DNA of 64,000 nucleotides from Deltaproteobacteria bacterium (GTDB lineage: Bacteria > Desulfobacterota > JADFVX01), in NCBI GenBank assembly GCA_029860075.1, contig JAOUBX010000011.1:11031-75030 (forward strand), in the 5' to 3' direction. The position numbers and the translations under genes were made by a program. Shown in pieces: positions 27,631 through 42,615 of the stretch. The notes under the pieces are model-generated. The model was not told the origin of the DNA. It was given only the letters and a program-made list of their open reading frames with translations, and did no database searches. The stretch's first letter is position 1; each line of letters begins with the position of its first letter.

Positions 27631-28143
27631 CTAATTGCTGGTGCACCCCTTGAACTCCAACTCCGGCTCTACAGTATGAGTGTAGGGAAGCCCATTTACC
27701 TTCCAGCCGTTGACTGTACGATGGCCTTTTTTATCCTTCGATCCCTCAAAGCTGTCCGACATATAATAGACCTTTTTGAAACCGGCTTCCATAAGCTTTG
27801 TGGCCGCCTGTTCCGCCCTGCCCCCACTTCGGCAGATCATAATGAGTGTCTTATCTTTGGAATATCTCTTTTCAACCATTTCGACAAATTCAGAATTTTC
27901 GTTCCACTTGGGGTAGAAACGAAGGGGAATATTGGGCACACCATTTGGCAAATCAGGGTGACCGACAAACTCATATTCAGCTTTAGTCCTCACATCGACA
28001 ATAAAAGTGTCCCTGGGACTATCCATAACCATCTTGTAGGCCTCTTTAGAATCAACCCCCTTCGCTTCCTCCTCTGCAAATGCAAAACTGCCGGCCATTA
28101 ATAAGAGAACCGAAACGAACACACTAATCCTTGATACCTTCAT
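27631..28143 (-). CDS. Periplasmic rhodanese-domain sulfurtransferase
   Basis: 170 aa, signal peptide, rhodanese fold with active-site loop CRSGGRAEQAA. Confidence 0.8.
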   Translation of the reverse strand: MKVSRISVFVSVLLLMAGSFAFAEEEAKGVDSKEAYKMVMDSPRDTFIVDVRTKAEYEFVGHPDLPNGVPNIPLRFYPKWNENSEFVEMVEKRYSKDKTLIMICRSGGRAEQAATKLMEAGFKKVYYMSDSFEGSKDKKGHRTVNGWKVNGLPYTHTVEPELEFKGCTSN

Positions 28144-28360: not shown

Positions 28361-28384
28361 CAGCCTGTAGTAGTTCTAACTTTA

Positions 28385-28524
28385 TTTTCAATTTGGAAAG
28401 GAGGGATTTTTTGCAAGGTCAAGGAAATCAAGGGTTTCGCCGAGTCGTACTACTGTACGTCGCACAAGCAAATCTGAAAATTGACGCAGAGATTGCGAAA
28501 AGCACCCTTTCCGGATGAAAACTA
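28385..28524 (+). repeat. 140-bp dispersed repeat, copy A (candidate small RNA)
   Basis: About 93 percent identical to 35698..35839. Begins TTTTCAATTTGGAAAGGAGGG. Contains a hairpin CGTAC-TAC-TGTACG that shows a compensatory change in copy B. Confidence 0.7.
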
Positions 28525-28525
28525 A

Positions 28526-28720
28526 TTAGACTTCACATTTCTTGCATGTAGAAATCCCAAAAATCGTATAAAGTGGGCAATTCCCTACAAGACCCGTCAA
28601 GAGCGGAACTAGTCCCACCAGTCCCCAGAGCGTCTTTGGACCAACAACGACAAGGGATAGCAGAACAAGCCCGGCAACTACACGGATGACTCTCTCAGTA
28701 CTATTTTCATTGATTTTCAT
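28526..28720 (-). CDS. DUF2892/YgaP-like small membrane protein
   Basis: 64 aa, two TM helices, conserved GxVGxCP-like motif. Family commonly partnered with rhodaneses. Confidence 0.6.
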   Translation of the reverse strand: MKINENSTERVIRVVAGLVLLSLVVVGPKTLWGLVGLVPLLTGLVGNCPLYTIFGISTCKKCEV

Positions 28721-29182
28721 CTTTCCTTCCTCCTTTAGTTTTGTCCTTCTAAATATGAAGAACCGGATTTGCTAAAAAGGATTCAAAAATAAATCTGTAA
28801 AAAATATGTGTAAAGAATACACGCCCGGAGGACGTGGCCTTGCTTGAGCCCTAAAAGGGCTTGCTTTTCCTTCCCGTTAAAAGGCAGCCGAGTGTAGCCG
28901 TTGACTGAGGATGAAGGGCACAAACTGTCTGAGCGAAGCGAGTTTTTGTGCCCGCCGAAGGCAACGGTGAAAGGAGGGGAGTCCCGCCTTGGCGGGACCA
29001 AGTTTTAGGGCGGCCTTTCTTTTGTTACTTTTCTTTGTCCGCAAAAGAAAAGTAAAATTATTATGGCATACCCTTTTAACTCTAACCCCGCACAAAGGAC
29101 GGGGATTTCAAAGATTAATTAAAAAAGGGGTACACAAACTTCAATTAAGAGGAAAAAAGGAAGGGAGGACAGGACAAGAAAG

Positions 29183-30266: not shown

Positions 30267-30713
30267 TCAAGCCCCCTGAGAGACTATCTCCACCAGCTTA
30301 ATCTCAAAGTTAAGCTCTTTCCCTGCCAGCGGATGATTGGCATCAACGGTTATAGTGTCATCCTTTATTTCGGTAATCCTCACATTGATAACGGTATTTT
30401 CATCGGCATTGGCCCTGAGTGTCATTCCGATCTTAGGCTCTAAACCTTCCGGCAGTTGGTCCCGGCCGATAAGAGTGAACATCTCCGCATTGGGTTCTCC
30501 ATAGGCCTCCTCCGGCGGTATGCTTATGTTTTTCTCCTTTCCCACTTCGAGACCAACAACAGCCTTTTCGAAAGCAGGGAGTACCATTTCTTTGCCGATG
30601 GTAAACTCAAAAGGCTTCGATTCATCTGAAGCGTCAAAAAGAGAGCCGTCTTCGAAGGTCCCTTTGTAGAGGACCTTTACCATATCACCATCTTTCGCTA
30701 TTTTCTTGTCCAT
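30267..30713 (-). CDS. FKBP-type peptidyl-prolyl isomerase (SlyD-like)
   Basis: FKBP domain with inserted IF (insert-in-flap) domain. Probable start is MDKKIAKDGDMVKV (residue 21 of the track ORF), preceded by AAGGA. Confidence 0.8.
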   Translation of the reverse strand: MDKKIAKDGDMVKVLYKGTFEDGSLFDASDESKPFEFTIGKEMVLPAFEKAVVGLEVGKEKNISIPPEEAYGEPNAEMFTLIGRDQLPEGLEPKIGMTLRANADENTVINVRITEIKDDTITVDANHPLAGKELNFEIKLVEIVSQGA

Positions 30714-30794
30714 CTTGTTATTCCTTTCAATTCTTATTAAAAAAGGCGGCAGGAACACCCTGCCGCCTCTCAAAAGCGCTTAACTCTGAAACAA

Positions 30795-31157
30795 TTACTT
30801 TCCTTTGCACTTACAAAGCACCCGCAAATGCTTGATCAAGGCATCTACCTCTTTATCAGTCAGGGTCTTCGACCAGGGAGGCATCATGGGTGACTTGCTA
30901 AGTGCAGGACCGCCATCAATAATAACATTCTTAAGATCAGCATTGGAGAGTTTATTCATCTCCGCTGCATTAGTAAAGTTCCTCGGTGTAACAGGCATAT
31001 CCTTTGTAACATTGGGCCCGTCACCCTTACCTCCCACACCATGACACTGGGCGCAGTAAAAACTATAAAGCTCCTTTCCACCAGCTGCATCAGCCTGAGG
31101 CGTTGCTGCCAGAAGGAAAGAAAAAACCGCTAATAAACATACAGTAATTCTCATCAT
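30795..31157 (-). CDS. Periplasmic monohaem class-I cytochrome c
   Basis: 120 aa, signal peptide, CAQCH. Confidence 0.8.
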   Translation of the reverse strand: MMRITVCLLAVFSFLLAATPQADAAGGKELYSFYCAQCHGVGGKGDGPNVTKDMPVTPRNFTNAAEMNKLSNADLKNVIIDGGPALSKSPMMPPWSKTLTDKEVDALIKHLRVLCKCKGK

Positions 31158-31182: not shown

Positions 31183-31860
31183 TTATTTGAAGCTGGCAAC
31201 AAAGGCCGATACATTTTTCATGTCTTTATCCTTCAGAAGACCCTTAAATACAGGCATAATCTTGACAGGCTTGAAAACCTTTGGATTTACCATATAGGCA
31301 TAGATCCAGTCAGGATTGAGTCGTTTGCCGGCTCCGACAAGTGACGGACCGGTCATACCACCGGATATTTTTTTCTTGAAGGGATATTGATGACAACCTG
31401 AACAGGGCATTTTTTTCATAAATATAAGCTTACCCTTTGGATTTTTCTTAGGCTTGATAACCCCTGCTTTGACATCCTTAGAAGTGAGTGTCATAAGGTA
31501 ATCTGTCACATTTGCCGCATCCCCCCCTGAGAGTTTAGGATGATTTCCTGGATTCTTCTTTGTCAGGGAATTAAAGGCTAATGGTCTGATGGGCTTGGGA
31601 TCCTGAAGCCATTTGGCCATCCACTCCTTCTGAAATTTGCTTCCCGCATACCAGAGTTCAGGCCCTTTTTTCTTTTTCTGATCGGCTATTGTCTTCTCAC
31701 GGGCAGGGCCTTTCGTATAATGACAACTTCCACCGCATTTCTTTGCCTTAAAAACCTTCTTTCCTGCCGCCGCATCGGCCCAGCTCATCCCGTTTGCCGC
31801 CAGAATGAAAGCAAATACCGACACTACTGATACTGTTCTCTTCCAAGTCACCACATTCAA
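31183..31860 (-). CDS. Periplasmic dihaem cytochrome c
   Basis: 225 aa, signal peptide. Haem motifs CGGSCH (CX3CH variant) and CSGCH. Confidence 0.7.
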   Translation of the reverse strand: MNVVTWKRTVSVVSVFAFILAANGMSWADAAAGKKVFKAKKCGGSCHYTKGPAREKTIADQKKKKGPELWYAGSKFQKEWMAKWLQDPKPIRPLAFNSLTKKNPGNHPKLSGGDAANVTDYLMTLTSKDVKAGVIKPKKNPKGKLIFMKKMPCSGCHQYPFKKKISGGMTGPSLVGAGKRLNPDWIYAYMVNPKVFKPVKIMPVFKGLLKDKDMKNVSAFVASFK

Positions 31861-32048: not shown

Positions 32049-32465
32049 TTATCGATGTTTAGGTTCTACAGGGAAGCCTGCCTGAACCCAGGCATCGAAT
32101 CCTCCCTTAAGGACCTTAACATCCTTGAATCCCTTTTCTTTTAGTATCACCGCCGCACGGGCGCTGGTATACTCATTAGCTCAGGTGCAATAAGCAACTA
32201 TCTCACTTTCTTTTGAAAGCTCGCCCCATCTCGACTCTAAAGCACCTATCGGTATCCTTAGGGCTCCTTTGATCTTGTCATTTGACGCCATCCACGAGCC
32301 CGTCGTTCTTACATCGAGGATGACAGTGGAACCACCTTTGTCTATCCTGGCCTTAAGTGCTTCAACGGTCACCCTGGGAACATTATCTTCCGCCTGGATC
32401 ATGGCAGGCATAAAGAGAAATATCGATACTACCAGTGTCATGCACCGTCTTTTCAACATTATCAT
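32049..32465 (-). CDS. Periplasmic rhodanese with in-frame TGA at the active site (candidate selenoprotein)
   Basis: Track ORF 32181..32465 stops at TGA (plus-strand 32181-32183) exactly in the catalytic loop (IVAYCT-TGA-ANEYTSARAAVILKEKGF). The same frame continues uninterrupted to TAA at 32049-32051, encoding the rest of the fold (KVLKGGFDAWVQAGFPVEPKHR). A hairpin CAGCGCC-CGUGC-GGCGGUG starts about 14 nt after the UGA. Confidence 0.55.
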
Positions 32466-32493
32466 AGACCTCCTCTCTGTAATGATTTGAAAA

Positions 32494-33198
32494 TTAATGG
32501 CCGCTTTTTACCAGTACATACAGGAGAGAATCATCACTCCAGAATGTAACGTCATCACCATAAACGGGCATTTTATATGCCGTGTTTTTCTTCATGTCAA
32601 AAGTAATACTATGGGGATCGAGGATAAAAAGTGATGCCCTCTTTCCCTCCTCTTCATAAAAGAGATATGCAACGTCCTCGCGCCCCAGGCTGCACTTCCT
32701 TCCGCCAAGCAGTTGCAGCCCTTCATCAAAGAGCCCGGGTACTGAAACTTCAAAAGCTAGCTTTCCTACAAACCAGCCGGGGATATCACTTACCTGTCCT
32801 GCCTCAAAAGTCATAGCGTAGTTCTTATAGTGGTTTTCCATGGCAAAATGGACCAGCTTTTCGGGACTCCCAATATCACCGATAAAAGGATTTAGCATCA
32901 CCAGAAGTAGCACAGCCATAGCCAGGGCAGGCATAGCAATTTTCCATGGAAAGAATGGTTTTTCATCTTTCTCTTTTGCTTCCAGGGCACTAATATCCTG
33001 ATCAATACGATTTAATAATCCTTCCGGAAGGGGCGATTTTTTAAGACCATCCGCTATGATCTCCTCAAGCTTCCTGTCCGCATTCATCATGGCTGAGCAG
33101 TATTCACACTGCGAGAGATGGTCTTCCACTTCCTGAGGCGGCCCTTCCACTGCTCCTTTGCCGGATAAATATTTTTTAAAATCATCACATTTCATCAT
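32494..33198 (-). CDS. Membrane-spanning anti-sigma factor with N-terminal zinc-finger (zf-HC2) domain
   Basis: 234 aa, N-terminal CDDFKKYL...HLSQCEYC, central TM helix, periplasmic C-terminal domain. Overlaps the upstream ECF sigma gene by 4 bp. Confidence 0.7.
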   Translation of the reverse strand: MMKCDDFKKYLSGKGAVEGPPQEVEDHLSQCEYCSAMMNADRKLEEIIADGLKKSPLPEGLLNRIDQDISALEAKEKDEKPFFPWKIAMPALAMAVLLLVMLNPFIGDIGSPEKLVHFAMENHYKNYAMTFEAGQVSDIPGWFVGKLAFEVSVPGLFDEGLQLLGGRKCSLGREDVAYLFYEEEGKRASLFILDPHSITFDMKKNTAYKMPVYGDDVTFWSDDSLLYVLVKSGH

Positions 33199-33803
33199 TG
33201 TCTTAACCTCCTGTCAGGACGGTTAAAATCAACTTTCAGTATGTTGTTACCATAATCAAAACCGGATGATGCACTTAGCAGTTCCTTTTTGAGATGGTTC
33301 TTCCCCCTTGATATACGCGACATGACCGTACCTATCGGTATTTCCAGTGCATTGGAAATCTCCTGGTAAGCCATCCCTTCCACATAGAAGAGAAGAAGCG
33401 GTGTTCTATACTTTTCCGGTATTTTGGAAACACGCTCGCTCATCCTGTATCTCTCATTTTTTTCTGAGATCAACGCCTCCGGATTACGGGATTCATCGCC
33501 TGTCCTTGCCAGCATTTCCACATATTTTTCCTCATGCTCGGTAATAAACTCCCCTTTCCTGGTATTCCTTGCACTTTCCCTGAAAAAGAGGTTTCTCATA
33601 ATGGAAAGGAGCCAGTACTTGCACTTTTTTTCATCTTTTAGCTGATCAAAATTCTTAAATGCTCTGTAAAAGGTTTCCTGTGTAATATCCTCGGCATCGC
33701 TGCCGTTTCCCGTATAATAGAGCGCCATATTATAAATGAACTCTGCATGAGGATAGGCCACCTCCTGAAAACGCCTCTTTTTTCTATTCTTTGATGAAAA
33801 CAA
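33195..33803 (-). CDS. ECF sigma factor
   Basis: 202 aa with sigma-70 regions 2 and 4. Confidence 0.8.
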   Translation of the reverse strand: MFSSKNRKKRRFQEVAYPHAEFIYNMALYYTGNGSDAEDITQETFYRAFKNFDQLKDEKKCKYWLLSIMRNLFFRESARNTRKGEFITEHEEKYVEMLARTGDESRNPEALISEKNERYRMSERVSKIPEKYRTPLLLFYVEGMAYQEISNALEIPIGTVMSRISRGKNHLKKELLSASSGFDYGNNILKVDFNRPDRRLRQ

Positions 33804-33806
33804 ATC

Positions 33807-34328
33807 CTACTCCATGAGGCTCTGGAAGTGAGCACCCAAATCTTTGGGGAGAGCGGCATCCCTGTAACGTACTTTTCCACTCCGATCAACGATAATGATG
33901 GTCGGTGTCCCCATAACGTTGAAAGACTTTGTAATTTTGCTCCCCTCATCAAAAGCAAGAGGATAATCCATACCGTATTTTTTACTGTATCGCTTCATCT
34001 TTTTTTCGGAATCATTGATACCCACGTTGATGGCCAGAAATTCCATTCCTTTTGGATTAAAGGTGGAATAGAACTCTTTAAGTTTAGGTATCTCCTCCTT
34101 ACATACGGGACACCATGTGGCCCAAAATATCAGGAAAAGGGGTGCTTTTCCTTTTTTATCATCCACCTTAAAGAGATTCCCCTTCATCGTTTTTATTTCA
34201 AATGACGGGGCCATATCTTCTACTGTGACAGCAAAAACCCTGACGGAAAAAAGAAAGAGAAAGACGATAGTAATTAAAGCTATCAGTTCAAAGCGGATAT
34301 TTAAGTTCAATTTAAATTCATTCTTCAT
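33807..34328 (-). CDS. TlpA/ResA-like periplasmic thiol:disulfide oxidoreductase
   Basis: 173 aa, membrane anchor, thioredoxin fold with WCPVC active site. Confidence 0.8.
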   Translation of the reverse strand: MKNEFKLNLNIRFELIALITIVFLFLFSVRVFAVTVEDMAPSFEIKTMKGNLFKVDDKKGKAPLFLIFWATWCPVCKEEIPKLKEFYSTFNPKGMEFLAINVGINDSEKKMKRYSKKYGMDYPLAFDEGSKITKSFNVMGTPTIIIVDRSGKVRYRDAALPKDLGAHFQSLME

Positions 34329-35026
34329 AGCAGCAACTCTCCCATTTTAATAAGGAAGTACTCTCCCAGGCCGATCATAAGAAAACCTATCCCCTTTTTG
34401 ACTTTTACCATCCACTCTCCCGACCTTGGAAGCGCAGCAACAAGACCTGAAAAGGTCCCTACCAGGACCAGCAGCACGCCCATGCCTAATGAAAAAACAA
34501 AGAGCAGGCTCCATCCAAGGAGGATATTACCTGTGGAGGCAACGTAGGCCAGCATAACCCCGAGTACGGGGGCCGTACAGGGCGCTGCCACGAAACCTGA
34601 AGCCATCCCTATAATTATAGCACCTCCAATTCCTCCACGTTCCGATGAAGCGGACTTGGGAACAAATGAAGGTATGGTAAAAACGTCAAGCATGCTCAAT
34701 CCCAGCAGTATTATAATATTGGCCACAATGAGGTAAGCATAGGGATTGGTACTTACCTGCCCGAAAAAACGCCCCGTTGCAGCAGCAAAGACACCGAGAA
34801 AGGAGTATGTGAGCGCCACACCGAGCACATAAGAGAGGGAAAGAATAAAGCCCCTCACCTTTGAACCTCCCAGGTTCCTTGAGCCTACATATCCTGCCGT
34901 AATAGGAATCATGGGATATACACAAGGTGTAAAGCTTGTCAAAAGGCCACCTAAAAAAGCTGCGATAAAAGACATAAGTATGGAGGCCTGCAGATAGGCC
35001 TCCATACCGTTTATAAGTTCAGTCAC
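34325..35026 (-). CDS. ccdA: Cytochrome c biogenesis thiol-reductant transporter CcdA (DsbD beta-domain)
   Basis: 233 aa, six TM helices, the two conserved Cys (TPCVYP and APCTAP). Confidence 0.85.
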   Translation of the reverse strand: MTELINGMEAYLQASILMSFIAAFLGGLLTSFTPCVYPMIPITAGYVGSRNLGGSKVRGFILSLSYVLGVALTYSFLGVFAAATGRFFGQVSTNPYAYLIVANIIILLGLSMLDVFTIPSFVPKSASSERGGIGGAIIIGMASGFVAAPCTAPVLGVMLAYVASTGNILLGWSLLFVFSLGMGVLLVLVGTFSGLVAALPRSGEWMVKVKKGIGFLMIGLGEYFLIKMGELLL

Positions 35027-35035
35027 AATTCTATA

Positions 35036-35512
35036 TCAATGATCGTGTGCCATAGAAGGTGCTTCACCAAGCTTCCTGCTCGCAAGTCTCTTGGCCATAA
35101 GCATGTCTTCCTCGTAGGCCGCTTTCTGAATCTGGGCCCATGTAATACCCTCGACCTTGATATCATCAATTTCGATCATATTTGCCACGGGATAAATGTA
35201 GCCGGTGATGGTAGCTTCCTTCCCCTTTTTCCCGATCAGTTTATGGGTCCTGATCACTTCGTGTCCTTTTGCATTTTCGACAATATTCCAGATGGTTCCG
35301 TCAGCTGTTTTAAAGCCGATACCGTGCTGTGAATAGAGGCTGCATTGCGCATTTGCGCCGTCAAGCTTTTTCAGGCTGCAGCCTACGCAAAGTAAAGTAC
35401 CTTTAAGCGTAATTTTGTCTAAACCTTTCTTTTTGTCCCAACCACCAGCAACGGCCAGCGTAGCCGTCAACAATAATACTGTTACCGCAATAGCTCCTTT
35501 TCTAAACATCAA
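35036..35512 (-). CDS. Periplasmic hypothetical protein
   Basis: 158 aa, signal peptide, two Cys pairs. No recognised family. Confidence 0.4.
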   Translation of the reverse strand: MMFRKGAIAVTVLLLTATLAVAGGWDKKKGLDKITLKGTLLCVGCSLKKLDGANAQCSLYSQHGIGFKTADGTIWNIVENAKGHEVIRTHKLIGKKGKEATITGYIYPVANMIEIDDIKVEGITWAQIQKAAYEEDMLMAKRLASRKLGEAPSMAHDH

Positions 35513-35663: not shown

Positions 35664-35708
35664 TTTCCATCCAGAAACTATAATAAATGAAACTTTGTTT
35701 TCAATTCG
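35664..35708 (+). promoter_or_regulatory. Shared promoter-like motif CCATCCAGAAAC-TATAAT...TGTTTTCAAT
   Basis: A near-identical 45-bp motif recurs at 60553..60598 directly upstream of the U32 peptidase gene. It contains a TATAAT / GATAAT -10 hexamer. Confidence 0.45.
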
Positions 35709-35839
35709 GAAAGGAGGGATTTTTTTGCAAGGTCAAGGAAATCAAGGGTTTCGCCGAGTTGTACTACTGTACATCGCACAAGCAAAACCGAAGATTGACG
35801 CAGAGATTGCGAAAAAGCACCCTTGACCGATGAAAACTA
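35698..35839 (+). repeat. 140-bp dispersed repeat, copy B (candidate small RNA)
   Basis: See copy A. Here it is preceded by a TATAAT promoter-like motif. Confidence 0.7.
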
Positions 35840-35903
35840 TTTATGATTTTCCGGCCAGATAGAGCCAATAGAAACAAGAACAGAGCAATTTTTCAGCATA
35901 TTT

Positions 35904-36395
35904 TTAAGCCGCCTTTGCATTCAGGGCCTCACCTTTTCCACTCAATAACAAGGCCCCACGATCCTCTTCCCCTGTAATATATTTTTGAGCCAGATCACCT
36001 ATAGTGTAGCTCTCCAGCTTGGAGATTAACGTTCGTTGTGTTTCTTCCAGAGACAGATGGACAGCACAATAGCCCCCCTTATGACAGGTATCGCCTCTTT
36101 CTGTACAACGTGTCATAATAATGGGACCATTCACCGCCTCAATAACATCCTTCAAGGTAATAAGCCGGGCATCTTTTGAAAGAGAAACCCCTCCGTCCCT
36201 TCCCCTGTACCCCTTTACAATTCCGGCATTAACCAGAGGAGGTATAACCTTTGCCAGGAAATAACGGGGAATTTCCTCCTCCTGCGCAATCTCCTTTATG
36301 GTAACAAGCTCCTTGTTATTCTTCATTGCCAGGTTAACAACAGACCGGATGGCGTAATCTGCAACTTTATTAAGCTTCATCTCATCACACCTCAT
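35904..36395 (-). CDS. Rrf2-family Fe-S transcriptional regulator (NsrR/IscR-like)
   Basis: 163 aa, N-terminal wHTH (KLNKVADYAIRSVVNLA). Three-Cys cluster ligand region CTERGDTCHKGGYC (Cx6Cx5C). Last gene of the cydA-like operon 2. Confidence 0.8.
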   Translation of the reverse strand: MRCDEMKLNKVADYAIRSVVNLAMKNNKELVTIKEIAQEEEIPRYFLAKVIPPLVNAGIVKGYRGRDGGVSLSKDARLITLKDVIEAVNGPIIMTRCTERGDTCHKGGYCAVHLSLEETQRTLISKLESYTIGDLAQKYITGEEDRGALLLSGKGEALNAKAA

Positions 36396-36672: not shown

Positions 36673-38298
36673 TTACTCCTCTTCCCTTCTGACTCTTCTT
36701 ACTAGCCAGAACTCACCGAGGCCCGTCAAAACGACACCGAGCAGTGCATAGATATAAACGTTCATCGGCGTGGGGGCCTCCATAAAGAGATAGTGCCAGG
36801 AGGAGAGACTCATAATAAGTCCATGCTCACCATTTGATCCATCCCATGCATTTAAAGCGAGAGGGATAAATTTGCCCTCTTCGAACTGGACGTCATTCTT
36901 GTCCTCTGTTTTAAGGGGGCGCTTCATAACCACTTTGTATGTAGCTCCCTTCCAAATCGCCTTTGACGTCACCTGCTGCTGGTCGGCCGGCTGTGACTTT
37001 ATGGGCTGTTTGTAACCCCTTGCAATAGAATCCTCTACAGCCGGTTCGCCGGCTGCATCCTTGTCGGCCTTCCATAGCCAGAGGTTCACCGGGTTTCCTG
37101 CATCACCTCTGAAGAAGTGAGGCTTCTTCGTCCCTTCAGCCATTTTGACGGGGAACTGTAAGGCGATGGAATCTCTGAAGTTATCAAAGTGTCGCGGGAT
37201 CATATCATTTGCCGCTACATATGAATTATATGCCCCTATTTTACTTATTTCCCTGGCATTAAACTCCTGCGATTCATCGTGTGTAAGATCCTGGAAAGGA
37301 TCATCCCACTCGACAAGGATGGCTATCTCTTTATCGTTATAGAGAGCCCTTACACTGGCAAGTTCGATACTTGGATTCTGCCATCTTGGCGCAGCAATAA
37401 CCTGTCCTGCCAGCCTTACATCCATAGGCTCGGCATTTTGCCACTGCGGTGCCTCGGGATCCTGAGGAAGTTCTCCATCGATCTTCTTTGCCTTCATTAC
37501 CGAGTGCTCTGTAGGGGTATACTGGAGCGACTTGATGTAGTTAGCCAGGTACCACCTTTCCTCATCATTAAAAGATTTTGCAAAGGAAGGCATGGGAGTA
37601 CCCATAATACCCGTTGAAAAGCGCATATAAATATCTTCAACTTCTGACCCTGCTTTAATTTTCCATGGCTGGGTAATATTCCTGATACGAATGGGAAAGC
37701 CCCAGTCATCTTCTTTTATATCCTTCTGACCATCACCCTTACCGCCTTTCCCATGACATTCAAAGCATTTTGCCCTCATAAAGAGTTCCTTGCCTTTTGC
37801 AATGGTATCTGCATTGTAGGGTGCTTTATTCGCGGGAAGACTTATTACTTTTTTACTTGGATCAAGCTCGGGATCTTCAAATTCCATGGCAAAGGTTTTG
37901 ATGTAATAGATAACCTGCCACCGTTCCTCTTCTGTAAGACCGTTCTTAATAATGTCATTATCAAAGGCCTGCATGGGAGTTCCCTGCAGACCACGGCTGA
38001 CAGTCCTGAAAAGATCTTCATCGGTAGGCAACTCACCACTTCCCGTCGTCCTGAACTTGAATACACCAAGGGTAAAATCTCTCGGTCTGGGATCCATATA
38101 ATCGGCAGCCGGGCCATTACCGTCCCCTAAAAGCCCGTGGCAGAAGCTGCACCTTTTGTAGTATATCTCTCTCCCTTTTTCAACGTTCTCAGGCGTCACA
38201 GGCGGCTTCGCCTTAGTCGGTTTTATGCCGGCCAGGGCACTAGTCCCAAACATAGTCATCAATATCGTTATTGCCAGAATGATTGCTCTTCTCTGCAT
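36673..38298 (-). CDS. Dihaem cytochrome c with large C-terminal domain and C-terminal TM anchor (paralogue of 16947..18479)
   Basis: Signal peptide, CSFCH and CFECH. Shares the conserved NPVNLWLWK / AWDGSN blocks with the paralogue. Terminal TM helix. Confidence 0.8.
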   Translation of the reverse strand: MQRRAIILAITILMTMFGTSALAGIKPTKAKPPVTPENVEKGREIYYKRCSFCHGLLGDGNGPAADYMDPRPRDFTLGVFKFRTTGSGELPTDEDLFRTVSRGLQGTPMQAFDNDIIKNGLTEEERWQVIYYIKTFAMEFEDPELDPSKKVISLPANKAPYNADTIAKGKELFMRAKCFECHGKGGKGDGQKDIKEDDWGFPIRIRNITQPWKIKAGSEVEDIYMRFSTGIMGTPMPSFAKSFNDEERWYLANYIKSLQYTPTEHSVMKAKKIDGELPQDPEAPQWQNAEPMDVRLAGQVIAAPRWQNPSIELASVRALYNDKEIAILVEWDDPFQDLTHDESQEFNAREISKIGAYNSYVAANDMIPRHFDNFRDSIALQFPVKMAEGTKKPHFFRGDAGNPVNLWLWKADKDAAGEPAVEDSIARGYKQPIKSQPADQQQVTSKAIWKGATYKVVMKRPLKTEDKNDVQFEEGKFIPLALNAWDGSNGEHGLIMSLSSWHYLFMEAPTPMNVYIYALLGVVLTGLGEFWLVRRVRREEE

Positions 38299-38379
38299 GT
38301 CAACCCTCTCTTAAAATTTTCAATTGTTTATTGACGATTGTTGAATGATTTTTCAACCATCAATCGTCAATCTTCAATC

Positions 38380-39369
38380 CTAGTGTTCCTCGCCCTCACC
38401 GTGAGATTCGGGGATGCGGGCTGTCTTCTCAGCCAGATCATACTCACCCATAATGATCTTCCATCTCTCATCGTCAGTGAGGTTGACTTTCCACTCAGGC
38501 ATTGCTGAGTCCCAGGGAGTCGCCTCTGTGGGCAGACCCGGGCCGCCGTTTGCAACCCTCCAGAAGGTATATCCCTCGACAATAACCTCAATTGTACCGT
38601 TATCAGTAAAGTTGATAGGCCTCAGCTTGAAGCCGTCAGCCATAGGCCCGTCACCGGCAACAGAGTCACCATGACAGGGTCGACAGTTCATTGCATAAAG
38701 AGCGCGTCCCTCAAAGAGATTCTTTTCATGCAATGCACCTCTGGCTGTCTCCCTGTCCACCTTACCTGATTCCACTTCCTTTATAAATTTCTTCCATGGC
38801 CCAGTAGGGATGAAAGACAAAGGATGGCCATCGGGATCAGGCCTCATTTCAAGCCAACTTTCAATATCGGCACTTACCTGGGGAATAAAATCTACCTCAC
38901 CGGCCTTTGCCTGTTCTACAAAGGCATCAATTTCCGCATCTGTCGGATTCTCCATGGGATTTTTCATGGACTCAAACTTTTTAGGAAAGTTCGATGAGGG
39001 GTGCTGTATCCTGAGGGCCACAGGAGGGTTCACTTTTGGAACCGTAAAATCGTAAACCTGCCATCCCACAACAAGAGGAACGACGGCTAAGACCACACTG
39101 CGCTGTAAACTGCCAAATTCACCTTTTAGCAGCCTAAGGATTGGCCTCAGGAACTCATTCATTCCCTCATCGGAAAATGTGACGTAGAGAAAAAGAGCAA
39201 CAAGCGTGAGTACCATATAGAAGAGCACCAACGTTCCCGGCACAGGAAGGGGGAAAGGCATCCCCGTTGCCTGCCTTGAGATGAAGGGGATGAGCCACTT
39301 TATAAGACCGTATATGACTAGCAGGGTCAAAACGATTGTCCAGAAGAAATTTAACTTTGATTTACCCAT
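38380..39369 (-). CDS. Membrane-anchored monohaem cytochrome c (paralogue of 18686..19456)
   Basis: N-terminal TM helices, CRPCH. Confidence 0.8.
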   Translation of the reverse strand: MGKSKLNFFWTIVLTLLVIYGLIKWLIPFISRQATGMPFPLPVPGTLVLFYMVLTLVALFLYVTFSDEGMNEFLRPILRLLKGEFGSLQRSVVLAVVPLVVGWQVYDFTVPKVNPPVALRIQHPSSNFPKKFESMKNPMENPTDAEIDAFVEQAKAGEVDFIPQVSADIESWLEMRPDPDGHPLSFIPTGPWKKFIKEVESGKVDRETARGALHEKNLFEGRALYAMNCRPCHGDSVAGDGPMADGFKLRPINFTDNGTIEVIVEGYTFWRVANGGPGLPTEATPWDSAMPEWKVNLTDDERWKIIMGEYDLAEKTARIPESHGEGEEH

Positions 39370-39396
39370 TTATATCTCCCTTATCGTATCAATTCT

Positions 39397-40371
39397 TTAT
39401 TTTTGAGCTTTTTGCATAATCAGGTAGGAAAGCACATCCTGATAATCCTTTACCGTAAGAGATTCGGAAAGGTCATCAGGCATTACGCTTGTACTCTCAT
39501 CTATCTTTGATTCTTTAATATCACTCTTGCTGATAGTGACAACGTCTCCATCTGCCTTGGTGATGTCGATTTCCGTCGCTTCATCACGGGTTTTAATCCC
39601 TTTGAACTGTCGCCCTTCTTTATTAACAACGACGTGGGTCTCAAAACCTTCAACAATAACAGTACCGGGCTGAACGATAGATTCGGAAATATACTTAAGA
39701 CCCTTCTTGCCTATTGCGGAAAGTTGGGGGCCTATTTCTCCTCCCTCGTCACCTATCATATGACACTCACTGCAGTTGTCCTCAAAAACAATCTTCCCGT
39801 TACCGGGGTCACCGCCTCCGGCTGCTGAAGCTGCTGCGATTTTGTCGTAATATTTTTTTGTTACCTCACTTGGATTATTGAGAGCATCCATGTCGAGATC
39901 TCCACCCTGACTCTGAAGATAAACAACAACGGCCTTGATCTCGTCGAGGCTTAGCGATATTGGCGGAGCAAAGACGATTGCCATCTCATTTTTATAGCCA
40001 TCTACCACGAAAGCTCCCGGATCGGCCAGACTCTCTACAAGATAATCGGTAGGTGAATAATTTTTTCCCGTCTGCTCACTGCGCTCTTTGGCCCTCTCAA
40101 CCGCTCTCGCACCGATGGGCAATGCAAACTTTTCTCCGAACTGACCCAAATTGGGACACCTGACGGCGCTTCCCCTGTCCCCAAGGCTGTGGCAGGTAAA
40201 GCAACGACCTTTACCCCAGAAGATGGCTTCACCCCCTTCGGGAGTGACCTCTACTGCACCGCCTCCACCCTTTTTTTCACCACCCGTAAGGTCGGTTATG
40301 GCCTTTCCTACATAAAGAAAGGTGGCCAGAACCAACAGCAGAAATATAAAAACATTAAGAACAGCTTTCAT
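39397..40371 (-). CDS. Dihaem class-I cytochrome c (paralogue of 19471..20280)
   Basis: Signal anchor, CFTCH and CSECH. Confidence 0.8.
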   Translation of the reverse strand: MKAVLNVFIFLLLVLATFLYVGKAITDLTGGEKKGGGGAVEVTPEGGEAIFWGKGRCFTCHSLGDRGSAVRCPNLGQFGEKFALPIGARAVERAKERSEQTGKNYSPTDYLVESLADPGAFVVDGYKNEMAIVFAPPISLSLDEIKAVVVYLQSQGGDLDMDALNNPSEVTKKYYDKIAAASAAGGGDPGNGKIVFEDNCSECHMIGDEGGEIGPQLSAIGKKGLKYISESIVQPGTVIVEGFETHVVVNKEGRQFKGIKTRDEATEIDITKADGDVVTISKSDIKESKIDESTSVMPDDLSESLTVKDYQDVLSYLIMQKAQK

Positions 40372-40503
40372 TGATAACCTCCAAAGAATAGTTCTGAAAA
40401 TGACTTGTAATCTCCCCTAACCCCTCTTTTTCTAAGAGGGGAACATTGCTCTTTCCCCCTTAGAAAAAGGGGGATTAAGGGGATTTTCAAATAACTTTAT
40501 TAA

Positions 40504-42615
40504 TCAATCCTTCTTTTTCTGCGAAGCAATACCGCCAAGCCAGAACATAAAGGCCACTCCAACGAGGAAGACCAGAACGGAAAGTCCTACCATCTGCGTC
40601 ATAGTGTAGTTACTGGGCGTATAGGCCCACTCCGATGTATCCCTCATTACGCCAAAGATATGCCAGTCAGTCCTGAGTCCTGAACGGATGAAACCCATAA
40701 GCCCCATATTCATGGTAATAACTATGGTCAAAAGAAGGAGCGCGTACTGACTTCTTACTGTCATCTTTCCCCACTTCAGCGGTCCGATCTCCTTGGCATT
40801 TCTGAAAAGGAAGGCATCAATGGCACTGACAAGGATCAAAGCGCTGATTAGCTGTAGAAACTGGCTAACAGCAATATTCCTGAGGAAGGGCGATGCTTTT
40901 TCCATCACAACAAAGCCATAAACACCCAGGAAACCTGTGACGCTTAAAGCCGTAAAACCGAGATAGAGATATTGACCTAAAACCCCTTTATCCTTTAAGG
41001 CAAGGAGAACAGCAACAACAGCTACTGCACAGTTAGCTAGAAGAAGGTAGCCCGTTGTTTTAAAATACTCGGTCCGGTCCGCCGGTAGATCGAGGCTACC
41101 TGGATCGAGGGTGATCATGGAGACGGCATACTGACCAACAATCAATATGGCCAACAGGCCTGCCATAGGGATCACAATTTTAGGCGCTTTTCCTTGCCGG
41201 CTGATTGGCAGAGTATCACCTTTATTCCCTCTTCTGTATAGGAGAAAGCTGAAAAAAGTAGCCAGGATGATCAGGTTAACAACCGCATTCTTTGCCGGCA
41301 TCAGTCCTAAATATTTCAAGGTGGGGTGATACTGGCTACCACCCATCTGGGATACCTCTTGACCGGTAAGGGGCAGATTGTGAGGCGTCAGCCACACGGC
41401 AAAGGAGATGATAATAGCACCGAGAATGAACTTTATATATTTATAATACCTCTCCGCCCCGGGTATCCTCGTCATGCCGCTCCATAGATAGTAGTTACTT
41501 ATAAGGAAAAGCGACCCTACGAGCATAGCCTGGATGATAAAAGTCCATGAGAAGTCACCGCCCATCATGTTGTTCCCCATAACGGCACTCGTTGAATAGA
41601 CCTCACGTCCGAGATAGTATCCAGCGAAGGGAAGAGGAATAAGGGCTGCTATAGCGACGAAGTTCGCAATATAGCCCATCCAGTCATAATGAGCTTTCTC
41701 TTCATCAGTTTTTGATCCGAGAAATTTGACTGCCGCATAGGAACCTGCAACCAATCCTCCAAAAGCAAGGTTCCCAAGCATTCTGTGAATGGCCACCGGT
41801 GTTGCAAGGGTGTTTTCGAATACCTGCCAGAGCGTACCCGTCAGTACTCCCTTCTGGTCAACACCTCCGGGGCTCATCATAAAGCCGACCCAGGAATTAG
41901 CCATCTGCATGATAGCCGTACCAACGACGTTTAGCAAAATACCTATCAGTATGTGGGTACTCTTCCTGTCCTTCACCATCATTAAACCGATACCAACAGG
42001 TAAAATGTAGAGAAAAGCCATAAAGGTTCTCGTATCAGTCCTCATTTGGGGACCGAATGCTCCAAAGAAGAAAGCTATGCCGATCAAAATGACAACGGCA
42101 CCGAGACCTTTCATGAACCACTGCACAGGTTTGCTGTACTCTTCTCCGCCACTGAGCCAGCCCCAGCCGTAATAGTATAGATAGAGGCAGAAGGTTTCGC
42201 CGAAGAAAAGGAGGGCATAAATGAACATGACGTCCTTGAAGTTGCCCGCCATATACCCCATGAATGTGGGATAAAGTGTAAAAAGGGCAAAGGCGAGAAG
42301 CCCGCCGAATGCAGCCGTTGTCGCATAGGCAACACTCAAAAGAGATGTAAACTCGTATGACAGCTTGTCGAACTTCTTATCTCCACCCTTCCAGCCTACG
42401 ATCTCGATTATCACCGCAAATAGCGGAACACCAAGAACAAAAGCCCCGAAAAATAGGTGCATCTGGGCTATAAACCAGACAACCTTCCTGGAGTCGAGGC
42501 CCAACACCTGCCGGTATACATTCTCTTCAAGGGCATATGCCGTTGATGATAGTACAAGCGCCATCAACAGGGCCGCAACGCCCCCTTTAACAATCTTATT
42601 AGATAACAAAGTCAT
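40504..42615 (-). CDS. Cytochrome bd superfamily (CydA-like) membrane protein, CydB-less, copy 2
   Basis: 703 aa. It has FIAQMHLFFGAFVLGVPLFAVIIEIVG (CydA helix-1 His/Glu motif), HYDWMGY, and C-terminal GFIRSGLRTDWHIFGVMRD, which aligns with the CydA GRQPW motif region. Collinear with copy 1. Confidence 0.8.
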   Translation of the reverse strand: MTLLSNKIVKGGVAALLMALVLSSTAYALEENVYRQVLGLDSRKVVWFIAQMHLFFGAFVLGVPLFAVIIEIVGWKGGDKKFDKLSYEFTSLLSVAYATTAAFGGLLAFALFTLYPTFMGYMAGNFKDVMFIYALLFFGETFCLYLYYYGWGWLSGGEEYSKPVQWFMKGLGAVVILIGIAFFFGAFGPQMRTDTRTFMAFLYILPVGIGLMMVKDRKSTHILIGILLNVVGTAIMQMANSWVGFMMSPGGVDQKGVLTGTLWQVFENTLATPVAIHRMLGNLAFGGLVAGSYAAVKFLGSKTDEEKAHYDWMGYIANFVAIAALIPLPFAGYYLGREVYSTSAVMGNNMMGGDFSWTFIIQAMLVGSLFLISNYYLWSGMTRIPGAERYYKYIKFILGAIIISFAVWLTPHNLPLTGQEVSQMGGSQYHPTLKYLGLMPAKNAVVNLIILATFFSFLLYRRGNKGDTLPISRQGKAPKIVIPMAGLLAILIVGQYAVSMITLDPGSLDLPADRTEYFKTTGYLLLANCAVAVVAVLLALKDKGVLGQYLYLGFTALSVTGFLGVYGFVVMEKASPFLRNIAVSQFLQLISALILVSAIDAFLFRNAKEIGPLKWGKMTVRSQYALLLLTIVITMNMGLMGFIRSGLRTDWHIFGVMRDTSEWAYTPSNYTMTQMVGLSVLVFLVGVAFMFWLGGIASQKKKD

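What the first reader, a model, noticed from the sequence alone, without database searches (positions are those of the whole stretch)
32049..32465. Rhodanese with UGA at the catalytic position and a downstream hairpin: candidate Sec-containing sulfurtransferase
The ORF stops at TGA inside the catalytic loop. Yet the same frame continues for 44 more codons encoding precisely the rest of a rhodanese fold, and UGA aligns with the catalytic Cys position (loop U-A-N-E-Y-T-S versus the canonical C-x-x-G-x-[RT]-S). A Cys two residues upstream gives a C-x-U motif typical of selenoprotein redox pairs. A 7-bp stem with 5-nt loop begins about 14 nt after UGA, where bacterial SECIS elements sit. A neighbouring Cys-rhodanese (27631..28143) shows that the non-Sec form coexists.
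Basis: partly seen in the sequence, partly recalled or inferred. Interest (0 to 1): 0.7.

Follow-up and report, generated by a model that had tools for sequence, protein, structure and literature searches.

The report
Known-family selenocysteine rhodanese, truncated in annotation
The in-frame TGA is real and almost certainly encodes selenocysteine in a small exported rhodanese enzyme, but this selenoprotein family has been known since 2005, so the only news is that public annotation cuts this gene short at the TGA.

Summary
A minus-strand gene (32459/32465..32049) has an in-frame TGA at 32183..32181. Read through, it gives one complete rhodanese domain.

- **Position of the TGA:** it aligns with the catalytic Cys of solved rhodaneses, and a Cys lies two residues upstream (C-x-U).
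- **Conservation:** among 89 homologous loci from genomes and metagenomes, 86 carry TGA at exactly this codon and 3 carry TGC (Cys). None has a stop or frameshift elsewhere.
- **Hairpin:** the stem starts 16 nt after the UGA in the family. The loop G is invariant in all 74 distinct UGA forms. Two synonymous codon positions covary (C:G to U:A). The window's copy meets all four published bacterial SECIS criteria.
- **Family:** the product passes the curated NCBIfam model NF041203 "rhodanese_LYCAU, rhodanese-related (seleno)protein" (118.3 bits, cut-off 115). This is the "CxU" rhodanese selenoprotein family credited to Zhang and Gladyshev 2005.

So this is a new member of a known kind, stored in databases as a 92-aa fragment. 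Its biochemical function is unknown and its gene neighbourhood is not conserved. The Sec machinery (selA/B/C/D) is not in this window and could not be checked. The "neighbouring Cys form" is an unrelated canonical rhodanese.

The parts
32049..32465 (-). Complete selenoprotein gene. It gives 138 codons from ATG 32465, or 136 from the more likely start ATG 32459, and ends at TAA 32051..32049. It encodes a single-domain rhodanese with Sec at codon 95 (93 from the second ATG).
   Evidence: Translation. Pfam Rhodanese 33-128, profile 1-101/102, E=1.2e-15. NF041203 118.3 bits against cut-off 115. The public gene call P0001 is truncated to 92 aa.
32469..32477 (-). Shine-Dalgarno-like GAGAGGAGG. It lies 3 nt before ATG 32465 and 9 nt before ATG 32459, which favours 32459 as the start.
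   Evidence: Read directly from the sequence. The database gene call also starts at the second ATG.
32391..32459 (-). Predicted N-terminal signal peptide MLKRRCMTLVVSIFLFMPAMIQA, with cleavage inferred after IQA. This implies an exported (periplasmic) product.
   Evidence: Basic n-region plus a hydrophobic core, read from the sequence. The same feature is present in the deltaproteobacterial and some acidobacterial homologues, and is covered by the NF041203 profile from position 5. No signal-peptide predictor was run.
32187..32189 (-). TGC codon for the Cys of the C-x-U motif, two residues before Sec.
   Evidence: Invariant [YF]-C-[TSA]-U context in all 89 homologous loci.
32181..32183 (-). In-frame TGA read as selenocysteine, at the catalytic-Cys position of the rhodanese fold.
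   Evidence: Aligned to the catalytic Cys of 6mxv and 1yt8. TGA in 86 and TGC in 3 of 89 homologous loci at this codon. The same TGA is present in two independent assemblies.
32143..32173 (-). Bacterial SECIS-type hairpin AGUAUACCAGCGCCCGUGCGGCGGUGAUACU. The upper stem is 32163..32160 paired with 32154..32151. The apical loop CGUGC is at 32159..32155, and 21 nt separate UGA from the loop.
   Evidence: MFE structure, -12.0 kcal/mol for the hairpin. In the family, a 5-bp stem in the same register is fully paired in 67 of 74 UGA forms, the loop G is present in 74 of 74, and pair 24/36 covaries at synonymous sites (CG 63, UA 10). It meets the four bSECIS constraints quoted.
32052..32180 (-). The 43 codons after the UGA. 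They encode the rest of the active-site loop (A-N-E-Y-T-S), the following helix and the conserved GGFDAW...VEPK C-terminus.
   Evidence: 77% identity over 30 aa to the C-terminus of full-length homologue P0002, E=1e-14. The segment is conserved across all homologous loci.

Best explanation
This is an intact selenoprotein gene. It belongs to the known 'rhodanese-related (seleno)protein' family (NCBIfam NF041203 rhodanese_LYCAU, also listed as rhodanese-like selenoprotein form 3 with a CxU motif).

**Recoding (strongly supported by comparative evidence).** During translation, the hairpin 14-40 nt downstream of UGA 32183..32181 acts as a bacterial SECIS. It recruits SelB.GTP.Sec-tRNA(Sec), so Sec is inserted instead of terminating. 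The product is 136-138 aa.

**Export (predicted from sequence).** An N-terminal signal peptide sends it out of the cytoplasm.

**Catalysis (inferred).** Sec occupies the catalytic-Cys position at the start of the rhodanese active-site loop and is the nucleophile. It would accept a sulfur or selenium atom, or be oxidised. The conserved Cys two residues upstream would act as the resolving residue, forming an intramolecular selenenylsulfide. The protein would then behave as a chalcogen-transfer or thiol-redox enzyme rather than a classical thiosulfate:cyanide sulfurtransferase. Its loop (U-A-N-E-Y-T-S) lacks the canonical Gly and Arg and carries a conserved Glu.

**Local context (speculative).** In this organism, the adjacent CcdA and ResA/TlpA-like genes could supply the periplasmic reductant.
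For: - **Domain spans the UGA.** Full-length rhodanese domain across the stop. The post-UGA segment is strongly homologous to full-length relatives.
- **Catalytic position.** U aligns with the catalytic Cys.
- **Codon conservation.** 77 of 80 genome loci and 9 of 9 metagenome family loci have TGA at the identical codon, 3 have TGC, and no locus has a stop elsewhere in the domain.
- **Hairpin conservation.** Same register in the family. 67 of 74 distinct UGA forms have 5/5 stem pairs. The loop G is present in 74 of 74 and GU in 66 of 74. Covariation is C:G to U:A at third codon positions of Ser and Ala (10 sequences). The structure exceeds all 500 shuffles and all slid controls.
- **RNA-level constraint.** The loop codon alternates between Arg (CGU) and Ser (AGU) while keeping NGU.
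- **Cys forms have degraded features.** One of the three lost the loop G (L069). Another (L051) has a stem mismatch and GC in place of GU.
- **SECIS criteria met.** Loop 5 nt, upper stem at least 4 bp, G at loop position 2, 21-nt spacing, MFE -12 kcal/mol.
- **Family model.** NF041203 118.3 bits, above the cut-off of 115, over profile 5-126 of 126. Secreted deltaproteobacterial homologues score 122-135.
- **Literature.** Rhodanese selenoproteins with a CxU motif are listed in PMC9312934 and PMC13188914 and are abundant in deltaproteobacterial symbionts (PMC1976440).
- **TGA is otherwise a stop.** It ends other genes in the window, which argues against an alternative genetic code.
- **Not an assembly error.** An identical TGA is present in independent ENA and Logan assemblies.
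Against: - No tRNA-Sec, SelA, SelB or SelD is detectable in the 64-kb window. The rest of the genome could not be examined, so Sec competence of this organism is assumed from its lineage.
- The NF041203 score is only just above the cut-off, and falls to 111.4 when the Sec position is scored as X.
- The window's hairpin has a G.G mismatch, leaving only 4 contiguous upper-stem pairs. Its folding energy alone is unremarkable (z = -1.5).
- The two closest full-length proteins in the protein database carry Ser, not Cys, at the Sec position.
- No conserved gene neighbourhood supports any specific biochemical role.
- There is no experimental evidence of Se incorporation, export or activity.
Confidence: 0.9

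Rival explanations
1. It is a pseudogene or nonsense allele. A Ser (TCA) or Cys (TGC/TGT) codon mutated to TGA, so only a non-functional 92-94-aa fragment is made.
For: The closest full-length database homologues P0002 and P0003 have Ser at this position, and TCA to TGA is a single change. Public annotation calls a 92-aa product. The Sec machinery is not shown for this genome.
Against: TGA at the identical codon in 86 of 89 homologous loci across Deltaproteobacteria, Acidobacteriota and Chloroflexota makes TGA the ancestral, selected state. The 43 downstream codons keep every conserved family residue. The downstream hairpin is conserved with covariation.
Confidence: 0.04
2. The UGA is decoded, but not as selenocysteine. 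It could be general stop-codon readthrough, Cys insertion by a Sec machinery loaded with sulfur, or an alternative genetic code (UGA = Trp or Gly).
For: No direct evidence of selenium. Cys is tolerated at this position in 3 homologues.
Against: TGA ends ordinary genes in the same window, such as rplT and a leuA-like gene, so the code is standard. The conserved SelB-type hairpin with an invariant loop G is specific to Sec insertion. No homologue has Trp or Gly codons at this site.
Confidence: 0.04
3. It is a sequencing or assembly error that creates a spurious stop in an ordinary Cys rhodanese.
For: The sequence is a metagenome-assembled contig. An independent assembly diverges from the window about 3.2 kb downstream of the gene, near 28810.
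Against: Two independent assemblies (ENA ERZ27296429, Logan SRR7134660) carry the identical gene with the same TGA. One is 100% identical over 3.7 kb and the other 99.96% identical over 13.65 kb around the gene. The same TGA recurs in 86 unrelated assemblies of homologues.
Confidence: 0.01

Closest known systems
NCBIfam NF041203 'rhodanese_LYCAU' rhodanese-related (seleno)protein. [quoted passage not shown]
   Same: About 125-140 aa, single rhodanese domain, signal peptide, Y-C-x-U motif with Sec at the catalytic position, GGFDAW...VEPK C-terminus and a SECIS hairpin 16 nt after UGA. The score is above the curated cut-off.
   Different: It is a peripheral member: 118 bits, against 122-135 for other secreted members, and at most about 50-53% identity to any relative found. 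The motif is A-Y-C-T-U rather than L-Y-C-A-U. The loop is U-A-N-E-Y-T-S, against the family's usual U-P-[DHN]-E-[AG]-[ST]-S. The SECIS upper stem carries a G.G mismatch, shared with L017, L022 and L041.
Other rhodanese-fold selenoproteins: form 1 (UxxS, WP_010941598.1), forms 2 and 4 (UxxG), the UxU variant of Olavius symbionts (PMC1976440), and TsoB, a rhodanese/DsbD fusion (NF045694, UxxxxU).
   Same: Sec replaces the catalytic Cys of a rhodanese domain. They are found mainly in Deltaproteobacteria and relatives. TsoB physically links a Sec-rhodanese to a DsbD-type membrane reductase, and here a CcdA gene whose best NCBIfam match is the TsoB membrane domain lies about 1.9 kb upstream.
   Different: The motifs and architecture differ. 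This protein scores only 24.5 bits to TsoB (cut-off 805) and is not fused to anything.
Canonical single-domain Cys rhodaneses (GlpE, PspE; active site C-x-x-G-x-R-[ST]).
   Same: Same fold, and the nucleophile is at the same position.
   Different: It has Sec instead of Cys and an extra Cys at -2. The loop lacks the Gly and Arg and has a conserved Glu, so thiosulfate binding as in GlpE or PspE is not expected (inference). It scores about 18-28 bits to the GlpE and PspE models, against cut-offs of 102.
Alr3790 of Nostoc (PDB 3k9r, 3hix, 2kl3, 3ilm), the best full-length solved single-domain match.
   Same: Single rhodanese-like domain of similar length. It aligns over residues 30-137 with E=1.4e-9.
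   Different: In the printed alignment, Alr3790 has no Cys or Sec at the aligned active-site positions (Y-G-A-G-D-E-Q-T). I could not retrieve its function.
Bacterial SECIS elements (consensus bSECIS model of Zhang and Gladyshev, as summarised in PMC13188914).
   Same: An in-ORF hairpin immediately downstream of UGA, with G(U) in a 5-nt apical loop, 21-nt spacing and MFE below -7.5 kcal/mol.
   Different: It has no match to any Rfam family. The sequence is family-specific (GCGCC-NGUGY-GGCGC).

Membership tests
NF041203 rhodanese_LYCAU (CxU rhodanese selenoprotein family) | Whole-protein HMM score at or above the curated cut-off (115 bits) with full-length profile coverage | tested here: met
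   118.3 bits over profile 5-126 of 126 with U scored as C. The score is 111.4 bits with X at that position. Secreted homologues score 122-135.
NF041203 rhodanese_LYCAU (CxU rhodanese selenoprotein family) | Y-C-x-U motif, with Sec (or Cys) two residues after a conserved Cys, at the rhodanese catalytic position | tested here: met
   A-Y-C-T-U. U aligns with the catalytic Cys of 6mxv and 1yt8. The same motif is present in 89 of 89 homologous loci.
Bacterial selenoprotein gene (general criteria) | In-frame UGA conserved in orthologues, with sequence conservation on both sides | tested here: met
   86 TGA and 3 TGC in 89 loci at the same codon. Both flanks are conserved.
Bacterial selenoprotein gene (general criteria) | Homologues with Cys aligned to the UGA | tested here: met
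   L010, L051 and L069 have TGC. More distant canonical rhodaneses have Cys at this position in an ungapped alignment.
Bacterial selenoprotein gene (general criteria) | SECIS hairpin meeting the bSECIS model: 3-9 nt loop, 4-16 bp upper stem, G in the first two loop positions, 16-37 nt from UGA to the loop, MFE <= -7.5 kcal/mol | tested here: met
   Loop CGUGC, a 4-bp upper stem extended to 11 bp, G at loop position 2, 21-nt spacing, -12.0 kcal/mol. Criteria quoted from PMC13188914. Conservation and covariation.
Bacterial selenoprotein gene (general criteria) | Genome encodes selA, selB, selC (tRNA-Sec) and selD | not testable with these tools
   None is in the 64-kb window. Only tRNA-Val and tRNA-Arg were found, and there is no SelB P-loop or SelD motif.
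Bacterial selenoprotein gene (general criteria) | Selenium actually incorporated into the protein | not testable with these tools
   This needs 75Se labelling or mass spectrometry.
Rhodanese superfamily (Pfam PF00581) | Domain match above the gathering threshold | tested here: met
   58.3 bits against 22.2, profile 1-101 of 102.
Canonical catalytic rhodanese (GlpE/PspE type) | Active-site loop C-x-x-G-x-R-[ST] | tested here: not met
   The loop is U-A-N-E-Y-T-S: no Gly at +3, and Thr rather than Arg at +5. GlpE and PspE model scores are far below their cut-offs.
TsoB rhodanese/DsbD fusion selenoprotein (NF045694) | Fused rhodanese plus DsbD membrane domain, UxxxxU motif, score >= 805 bits | tested here: not met
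   24.5 bits, a single domain and a single Sec. The separate CcdA gene nearby matches only the TsoB membrane part (174.7 bits).

The most novel reading that the evidence does not exclude
In this organism the exported Sec-rhodanese may be the periplasmic end of a dedicated, ECF-sigma-controlled thiol/selenol redox module. The gene order is secreted CxxC protein, CcdA, ResA/TlpA-like thioredoxin, ECF sigma, anti-sigma, Sec-rhodanese, SoxX-like cytochrome c, cytochrome c. This would be an unfused counterpart of the TsoB rhodanese/DsbD fusion. CcdA and the thioredoxin would re-reduce the C-x-U selenenylsulfide, and the cytochromes would carry away electrons from oxidation of a periplasmic sulfur or selenium compound. 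That would give the first functional context for a selenoprotein family that has had none since 2005.
Probability: 0.1. Interest if true: 0.45.

Novelty: new member of a known kind. Interest (0 to 1): 0.15.

Why it matters
The practical value is a correction to annotation. The gene is stored in public databases as a 92-aa 'rhodanese-like domain-containing protein' cut at the Sec codon. The true product is a 136-138-aa exported selenoprotein.

It also marks this uncultured deltaproteobacterium as a probable selenocysteine user.

It does not open a new question. Sec-rhodaneses with a CxU motif are catalogued and have a curated HMM. The open question remains what this family does. The comparative data here add four points, and I did not check whether any of them has been reported before:
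- secreted and cytoplasmic subgroups;
- a loop with a conserved Glu;
- Arg/Ser alternation at the SECIS loop codon, driven at the RNA level;
- no conserved neighbourhood.

Tried and rejected
1. **Nonsense mutation or pseudogene.** Rejected, because TGA sits at the same codon in 86 of 89 homologous loci.
2. **Alternative genetic code.** Rejected, because TGA ends other genes in the window and no homologue has Trp or Gly at the site.
3. **Assembly error.** Rejected, because two independent assemblies carry the identical sequence.
4. **Other selenoprotein genes or Sec machinery in the window.** A scan of all in-frame-TGA ORF pairs gave no other convincing candidate. The CxxC-protein/CcdA pair at 34325..35512 is two adjacent genes in the same frame. 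No tRNA-Sec, SelB or SelD motif was found.
5. **Conserved gene neighbourhood.** tblastn of 14 window neighbours against 80 plus 19 loci, all-against-all clustering of flanking ORFs, and a CxxCH census found nothing shared. Cytochrome c neighbours occur in only 1 of 14 secreted-type loci.
6. **Rfam.** No match for the hairpin or for the repeat element.
7. **Promoter and terminator scan around the gene.** Counts were no higher than in shuffles.
8. **Structure prediction of the U-to-C product.** It was not pursued with a homologue, because the tool returns no coordinates for measuring Cys-Sec geometry.
9. **Closer relatives.** The metagenome scan found none; the best match was 52% identity over a near-full-length match.
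10. **'Neighbouring Cys form'.** Rejected as a counterpart. It is a canonical CRSGGR rhodanese of another subfamily.

Full report
**1. What is in the sequence**

The feature lies on the minus strand. An ORF starts at ATG 32465. A second ATG at 32459 is better placed, 9 nt after GGAGG at 32473..32469, and is the start used by the public gene call. The ORF runs 94 codons to TGA at 32183..32181. The same frame then continues for 43 sense codons to TAA at 32051..32049.

With the TGA read through, the 138-aa product is a single, complete Pfam Rhodanese domain: residues 33-128, profile positions 1-101 of 102, E=1.2e-15. The 43 residues after the TGA are 77% identical over 30 residues to the C-terminus of a full-length homologue (E=1e-14).

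In HMMER alignments to solved structures, the TGA codon pairs with the catalytic Cys of both domains of 6mxv and of a domain of 1yt8. The loop U-A-N-E-Y-T-S aligns with C-G-G-G-F-R-S and C-A-G-R-T-R-S. It also aligns without gaps to the Cys of canonical CKGGxRA rhodaneses found in the metagenome scan. A Cys lies two residues upstream (A-Y-C-T-U).

The N-terminus (MLKRRCMTLVVSIFLFMPAMIQA/EDN) looks like a signal peptide.

CAGCGCC-CGUGC-GGCGGUG starts 14 nt after the UGA and has one G.G mismatch. It extends to an 11-bp hairpin at 32173..32143. Taken alone its stability is unremarkable (z = -1.5 against shuffles).

**2. Is it more than chance? Comparative test**

*Genome scan.* A scan of one genome per species returned 80 loci that encode relatives. 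Their tblastn matches run across the stop position. Translating them in frame gives Y/F-C-[TSA]-* in 77 loci and Y-C-[ST]-C in 3. The stop is TGA in all 77 and the Cys codon is TGC in all 3.

*Metagenome scan.* This added 9 more family members, all with TGA at that codon. No locus shows a stop or frameshift elsewhere in the domain. Sequence after the TGA is as conserved as sequence before it.

*Taxa.* The loci come from Deltaproteobacteria/Thermodesulfobacteriota, Syntrophales, many Acidobacteriota (Pyrinomonadaceae, Blastocatellia, Terriglobales) and Dehalococcoidia/Chloroflexota.

**3. The hairpin**

An ungapped alignment of 77 distinct sequences covered 3 nt before to 48 nt after the UGA codon. 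RNAalifold predicts a 5-bp stem at columns 23-27/33-37 (consensus GCGCC/GGCGC). It begins 16 nt after the UGA and closes a 5-nt loop NGUGY.

- Pair 24/36 is C:G in 63 sequences and U:A in 10. Both columns are third codon positions (Ser AGC/AGU and Ala GCG/GCA), so the covariation cannot be explained by the protein.
- The structure I supplied exceeds all 500 column shuffles for percentage paired, double changes and covariation score. It also exceeds every slid-register control (80% paired against 27-51%).
- Among the 74 distinct UGA forms, 67 have all five pairs. The loop G is present in 74 of 74, and GU in 66 of 74.
- The codon that carries the loop G alternates between Arg (CGU) and Ser (AGU). 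This is a non-conservative amino-acid change that preserves NGU.
- Of the three Cys forms, L069 has lost the loop G (AAUGU). L051 has a stem mismatch and GC in place of GU. That is what one expects once the SECIS is no longer needed.

The window's own copy meets the four constraints of the published bacterial SECIS model, quoted from PMC13188914:
- loop of 3-9 nt (here 5);
- upper stem of at least 4 bp;
- G in the first two loop positions;
- 16-37 nt between UGA and loop (here 21), with MFE <= -7.5 kcal/mol (here -12.0).

Its G.G mismatch at the base of the upper stem is shared with L017, L022 and L041. In the window, L017 and L041 it is followed by two further pairs (A-U, C-G).

**4. Alternatives**

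- *Alternative code.* TGA functions as an ordinary stop elsewhere in the window, for example at the end of rplT and of a leuA-like gene. This excludes a UGA = Trp or Gly code.
- *Assembly error.* Two independent assemblies contain the identical gene with the same TGA: an ENA contig 99.96% identical over 13.65 kb and a Logan contig 100% identical over 3.7 kb.
- *TCA-to-TGA nonsense mutation.* I first took this seriously, because the two closest full-length proteins in the protein database (P0002, P0003) have Ser at this position. The 86-of-89 TGA count makes it untenable.

**5. What it is**

The product matches NCBIfam NF041203 'rhodanese_LYCAU, rhodanese-related (seleno)protein', an equivalog model. 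The score is 118.3 bits against a curated cut-off of 115, over profile positions 5-126 of 126. It falls to 111.4 bits if the Sec is scored as X. Signal-peptide-bearing deltaproteobacterial homologues score 122-135. The shorter cytoplasmic acidobacterial and Dehalococcoidia forms score 100-110.

[quoted passage not shown] Both credit it to Zhang and Gladyshev 2005 (PMC9312934, PMC13188914). Rhodanese-related selenoproteins were among the most abundant selenoprotein families in the deltaproteobacterial symbionts of Olavius, where a UxU variant was also seen (PMC1976440). They were also found in the Sargasso Sea data (PMC1088965).

The finding is therefore a correct rediscovery of a catalogued family. 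The public record for this very gene is a 92-aa 'rhodanese-like domain-containing protein' from a deltaproteobacterial MAG, truncated at the Sec codon.

**6. How it most likely works**

*Shown by comparative evidence.* UGA is recoded with the help of the downstream hairpin.

*Predicted from sequence.* The protein is exported. The family splits into a secreted subgroup, which includes this protein, L001-L007, L009-L011, L013, L014, L017 and L041, and a cytoplasmic subgroup.

*Inferred from established rhodanese and selenoprotein chemistry.* The selenolate at the start of the active-site loop is the nucleophile, and the invariant Cys at -2 resolves the intermediate as a selenenylsulfide. The loop lacks the canonical Gly and Arg and carries a conserved Glu (family consensus U-P-[DHN]-E-[AG]-[ST]-S; here U-A-N-E-Y-T-S). 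A classical thiosulfate:cyanide reaction is therefore doubtful. I found no paper that assigns a function.

**7. Context**

In the window the gene sits in a co-directional run:
- a secreted CxxC protein (35036..35512);
- CcdA/DsbD-type membrane protein (34325..35026), whose best NCBIfam match is the membrane part of the rhodanese/DsbD fusion selenoprotein TsoB (174.7 bits);
- a ResA/TlpA-like thioredoxin (33807..34328);
- an ECF sigma factor (33195..33803);
- an anti-sigma factor (32494..33198);
- the Sec-rhodanese;
- a cytochrome c whose C-terminal domain is SoxX-like (31183..31860; 57.4 bits against cut-off 61);
- a second cytochrome c (30795..31157);
- an FKBP isomerase (30267..30773).

This suggests a periplasmic thiol-redox or sulfur-oxidation setting. 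However, none of these neighbours is found next to any of the 99 related loci. Flanking ORFs of the homologues do not cluster into any shared family. Cytochrome neighbours occur in only 1 of 14 secreted-type loci. I therefore treat the context as a low-probability lead, not as evidence.

**8. Limits**

- The Sec machinery could not be checked. The window has only tRNA-Val and tRNA-Arg and no Rfam hit beyond them. A crude motif scan found no SelB or SelD.
- The 'neighbouring Cys-rhodanese' at 27631..28143 is a canonical, signal-peptide-bearing C-R-S-G-G-R-A rhodanese of another subfamily. It also lies beyond a point (about 28810) where an independent assembly diverges from the window.

**9. Verdict**

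This is a new member of a known selenoprotein family. It is of low interest beyond correcting the annotation.

Noticed in passing
window 28378..28539 and 35691..35848: Two direct copies (about 92% identical) of a roughly 160-nt intergenic element lie 7.3 kb apart and bracket the whole cluster from the second ECF sigma gene to the CxxC protein, Sec-rhodanese included. The ends form an imperfect inverted repeat (GGAAAGGAGGGATTTTTTTGC ... GCGAAAAAGCACCCTTTCC). An independent assembly (L081) holds a further, inverted copy and diverges from the window near 28810. There is no Rfam match and no further copy in the window. It could be a MITE-like element or an assembly-confounding repeat.
   Followed up: partly
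window 33807..35512 (minus strand): A secreted CxxC protein of unknown family (158 aa, no Pfam or NCBIfam hit), CcdA and a ResA/TlpA-like thioredoxin lie directly upstream of the ECF sigma/anti-sigma pair. The best NCBIfam match of CcdA is the membrane domain of the selenoprotein TsoB (174.7 bits), slightly better than DsbD (161.7).
   Followed up: partly
window 31183..31860 (minus strand): The two-domain c-type cytochrome immediately downstream of the Sec-rhodanese has a C-terminal domain that matches SoxX, the sulfur-oxidation cytochrome, just under the curated cut-off (57.4 against 61 bits).
   Followed up: no
window 36673..42615 (minus strand): A cluster of large periplasmic and membrane redox proteins. 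It includes a 541-aa protein combining cytochrome c domains with an EB_dh/DMSO-reductase-gamma-like haem b domain, two cytochrome c proteins of about 325 aa, and a 703-aa polytopic membrane protein with only a weak Cyt_bd_oxida_I hit and no NCBIfam match. An Rrf2 regulator (35904..36395) sits beside it.
   Followed up: no
P0002 and P0003 (database homologues): The two closest full-length proteins in the protein database have Ser, not Cys or Sec, at the Sec position (Y-C-A-S and Y-C-T-S), while keeping the upstream Cys. They may be Sec-to-Ser variants in which the upstream Cys is the working residue. I did not check the DNA for TCA against TGA.
   Followed up: no
loci L001-L080 (genome scan): The family splits into a signal-peptide-bearing subgroup (Deltaproteobacteria, Syntrophales, some Blastocatellia) and a shorter cytoplasmic subgroup (most Pyrinomonadaceae/Acidobacteriota, Dehalococcoidia). 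The cytoplasmic forms tested (3 of them: 100-110 bits), and one secreted form (L017, 112.3 bits), fall below the NF041203 cut-off although they carry the same Y-C-T-U motif and SECIS. Current annotation rules may therefore miss them.
   Followed up: partly
window 27631..28143 (minus strand): A second exported rhodanese with a canonical C-R-S-G-G-R-A active site and a roughly 40-aa C-terminal extension. In the other assembly (L081) the sequence beyond about 28810 is different, and the corresponding region there carries, among others, an Rce1-like gene call.
   Followed up: partly
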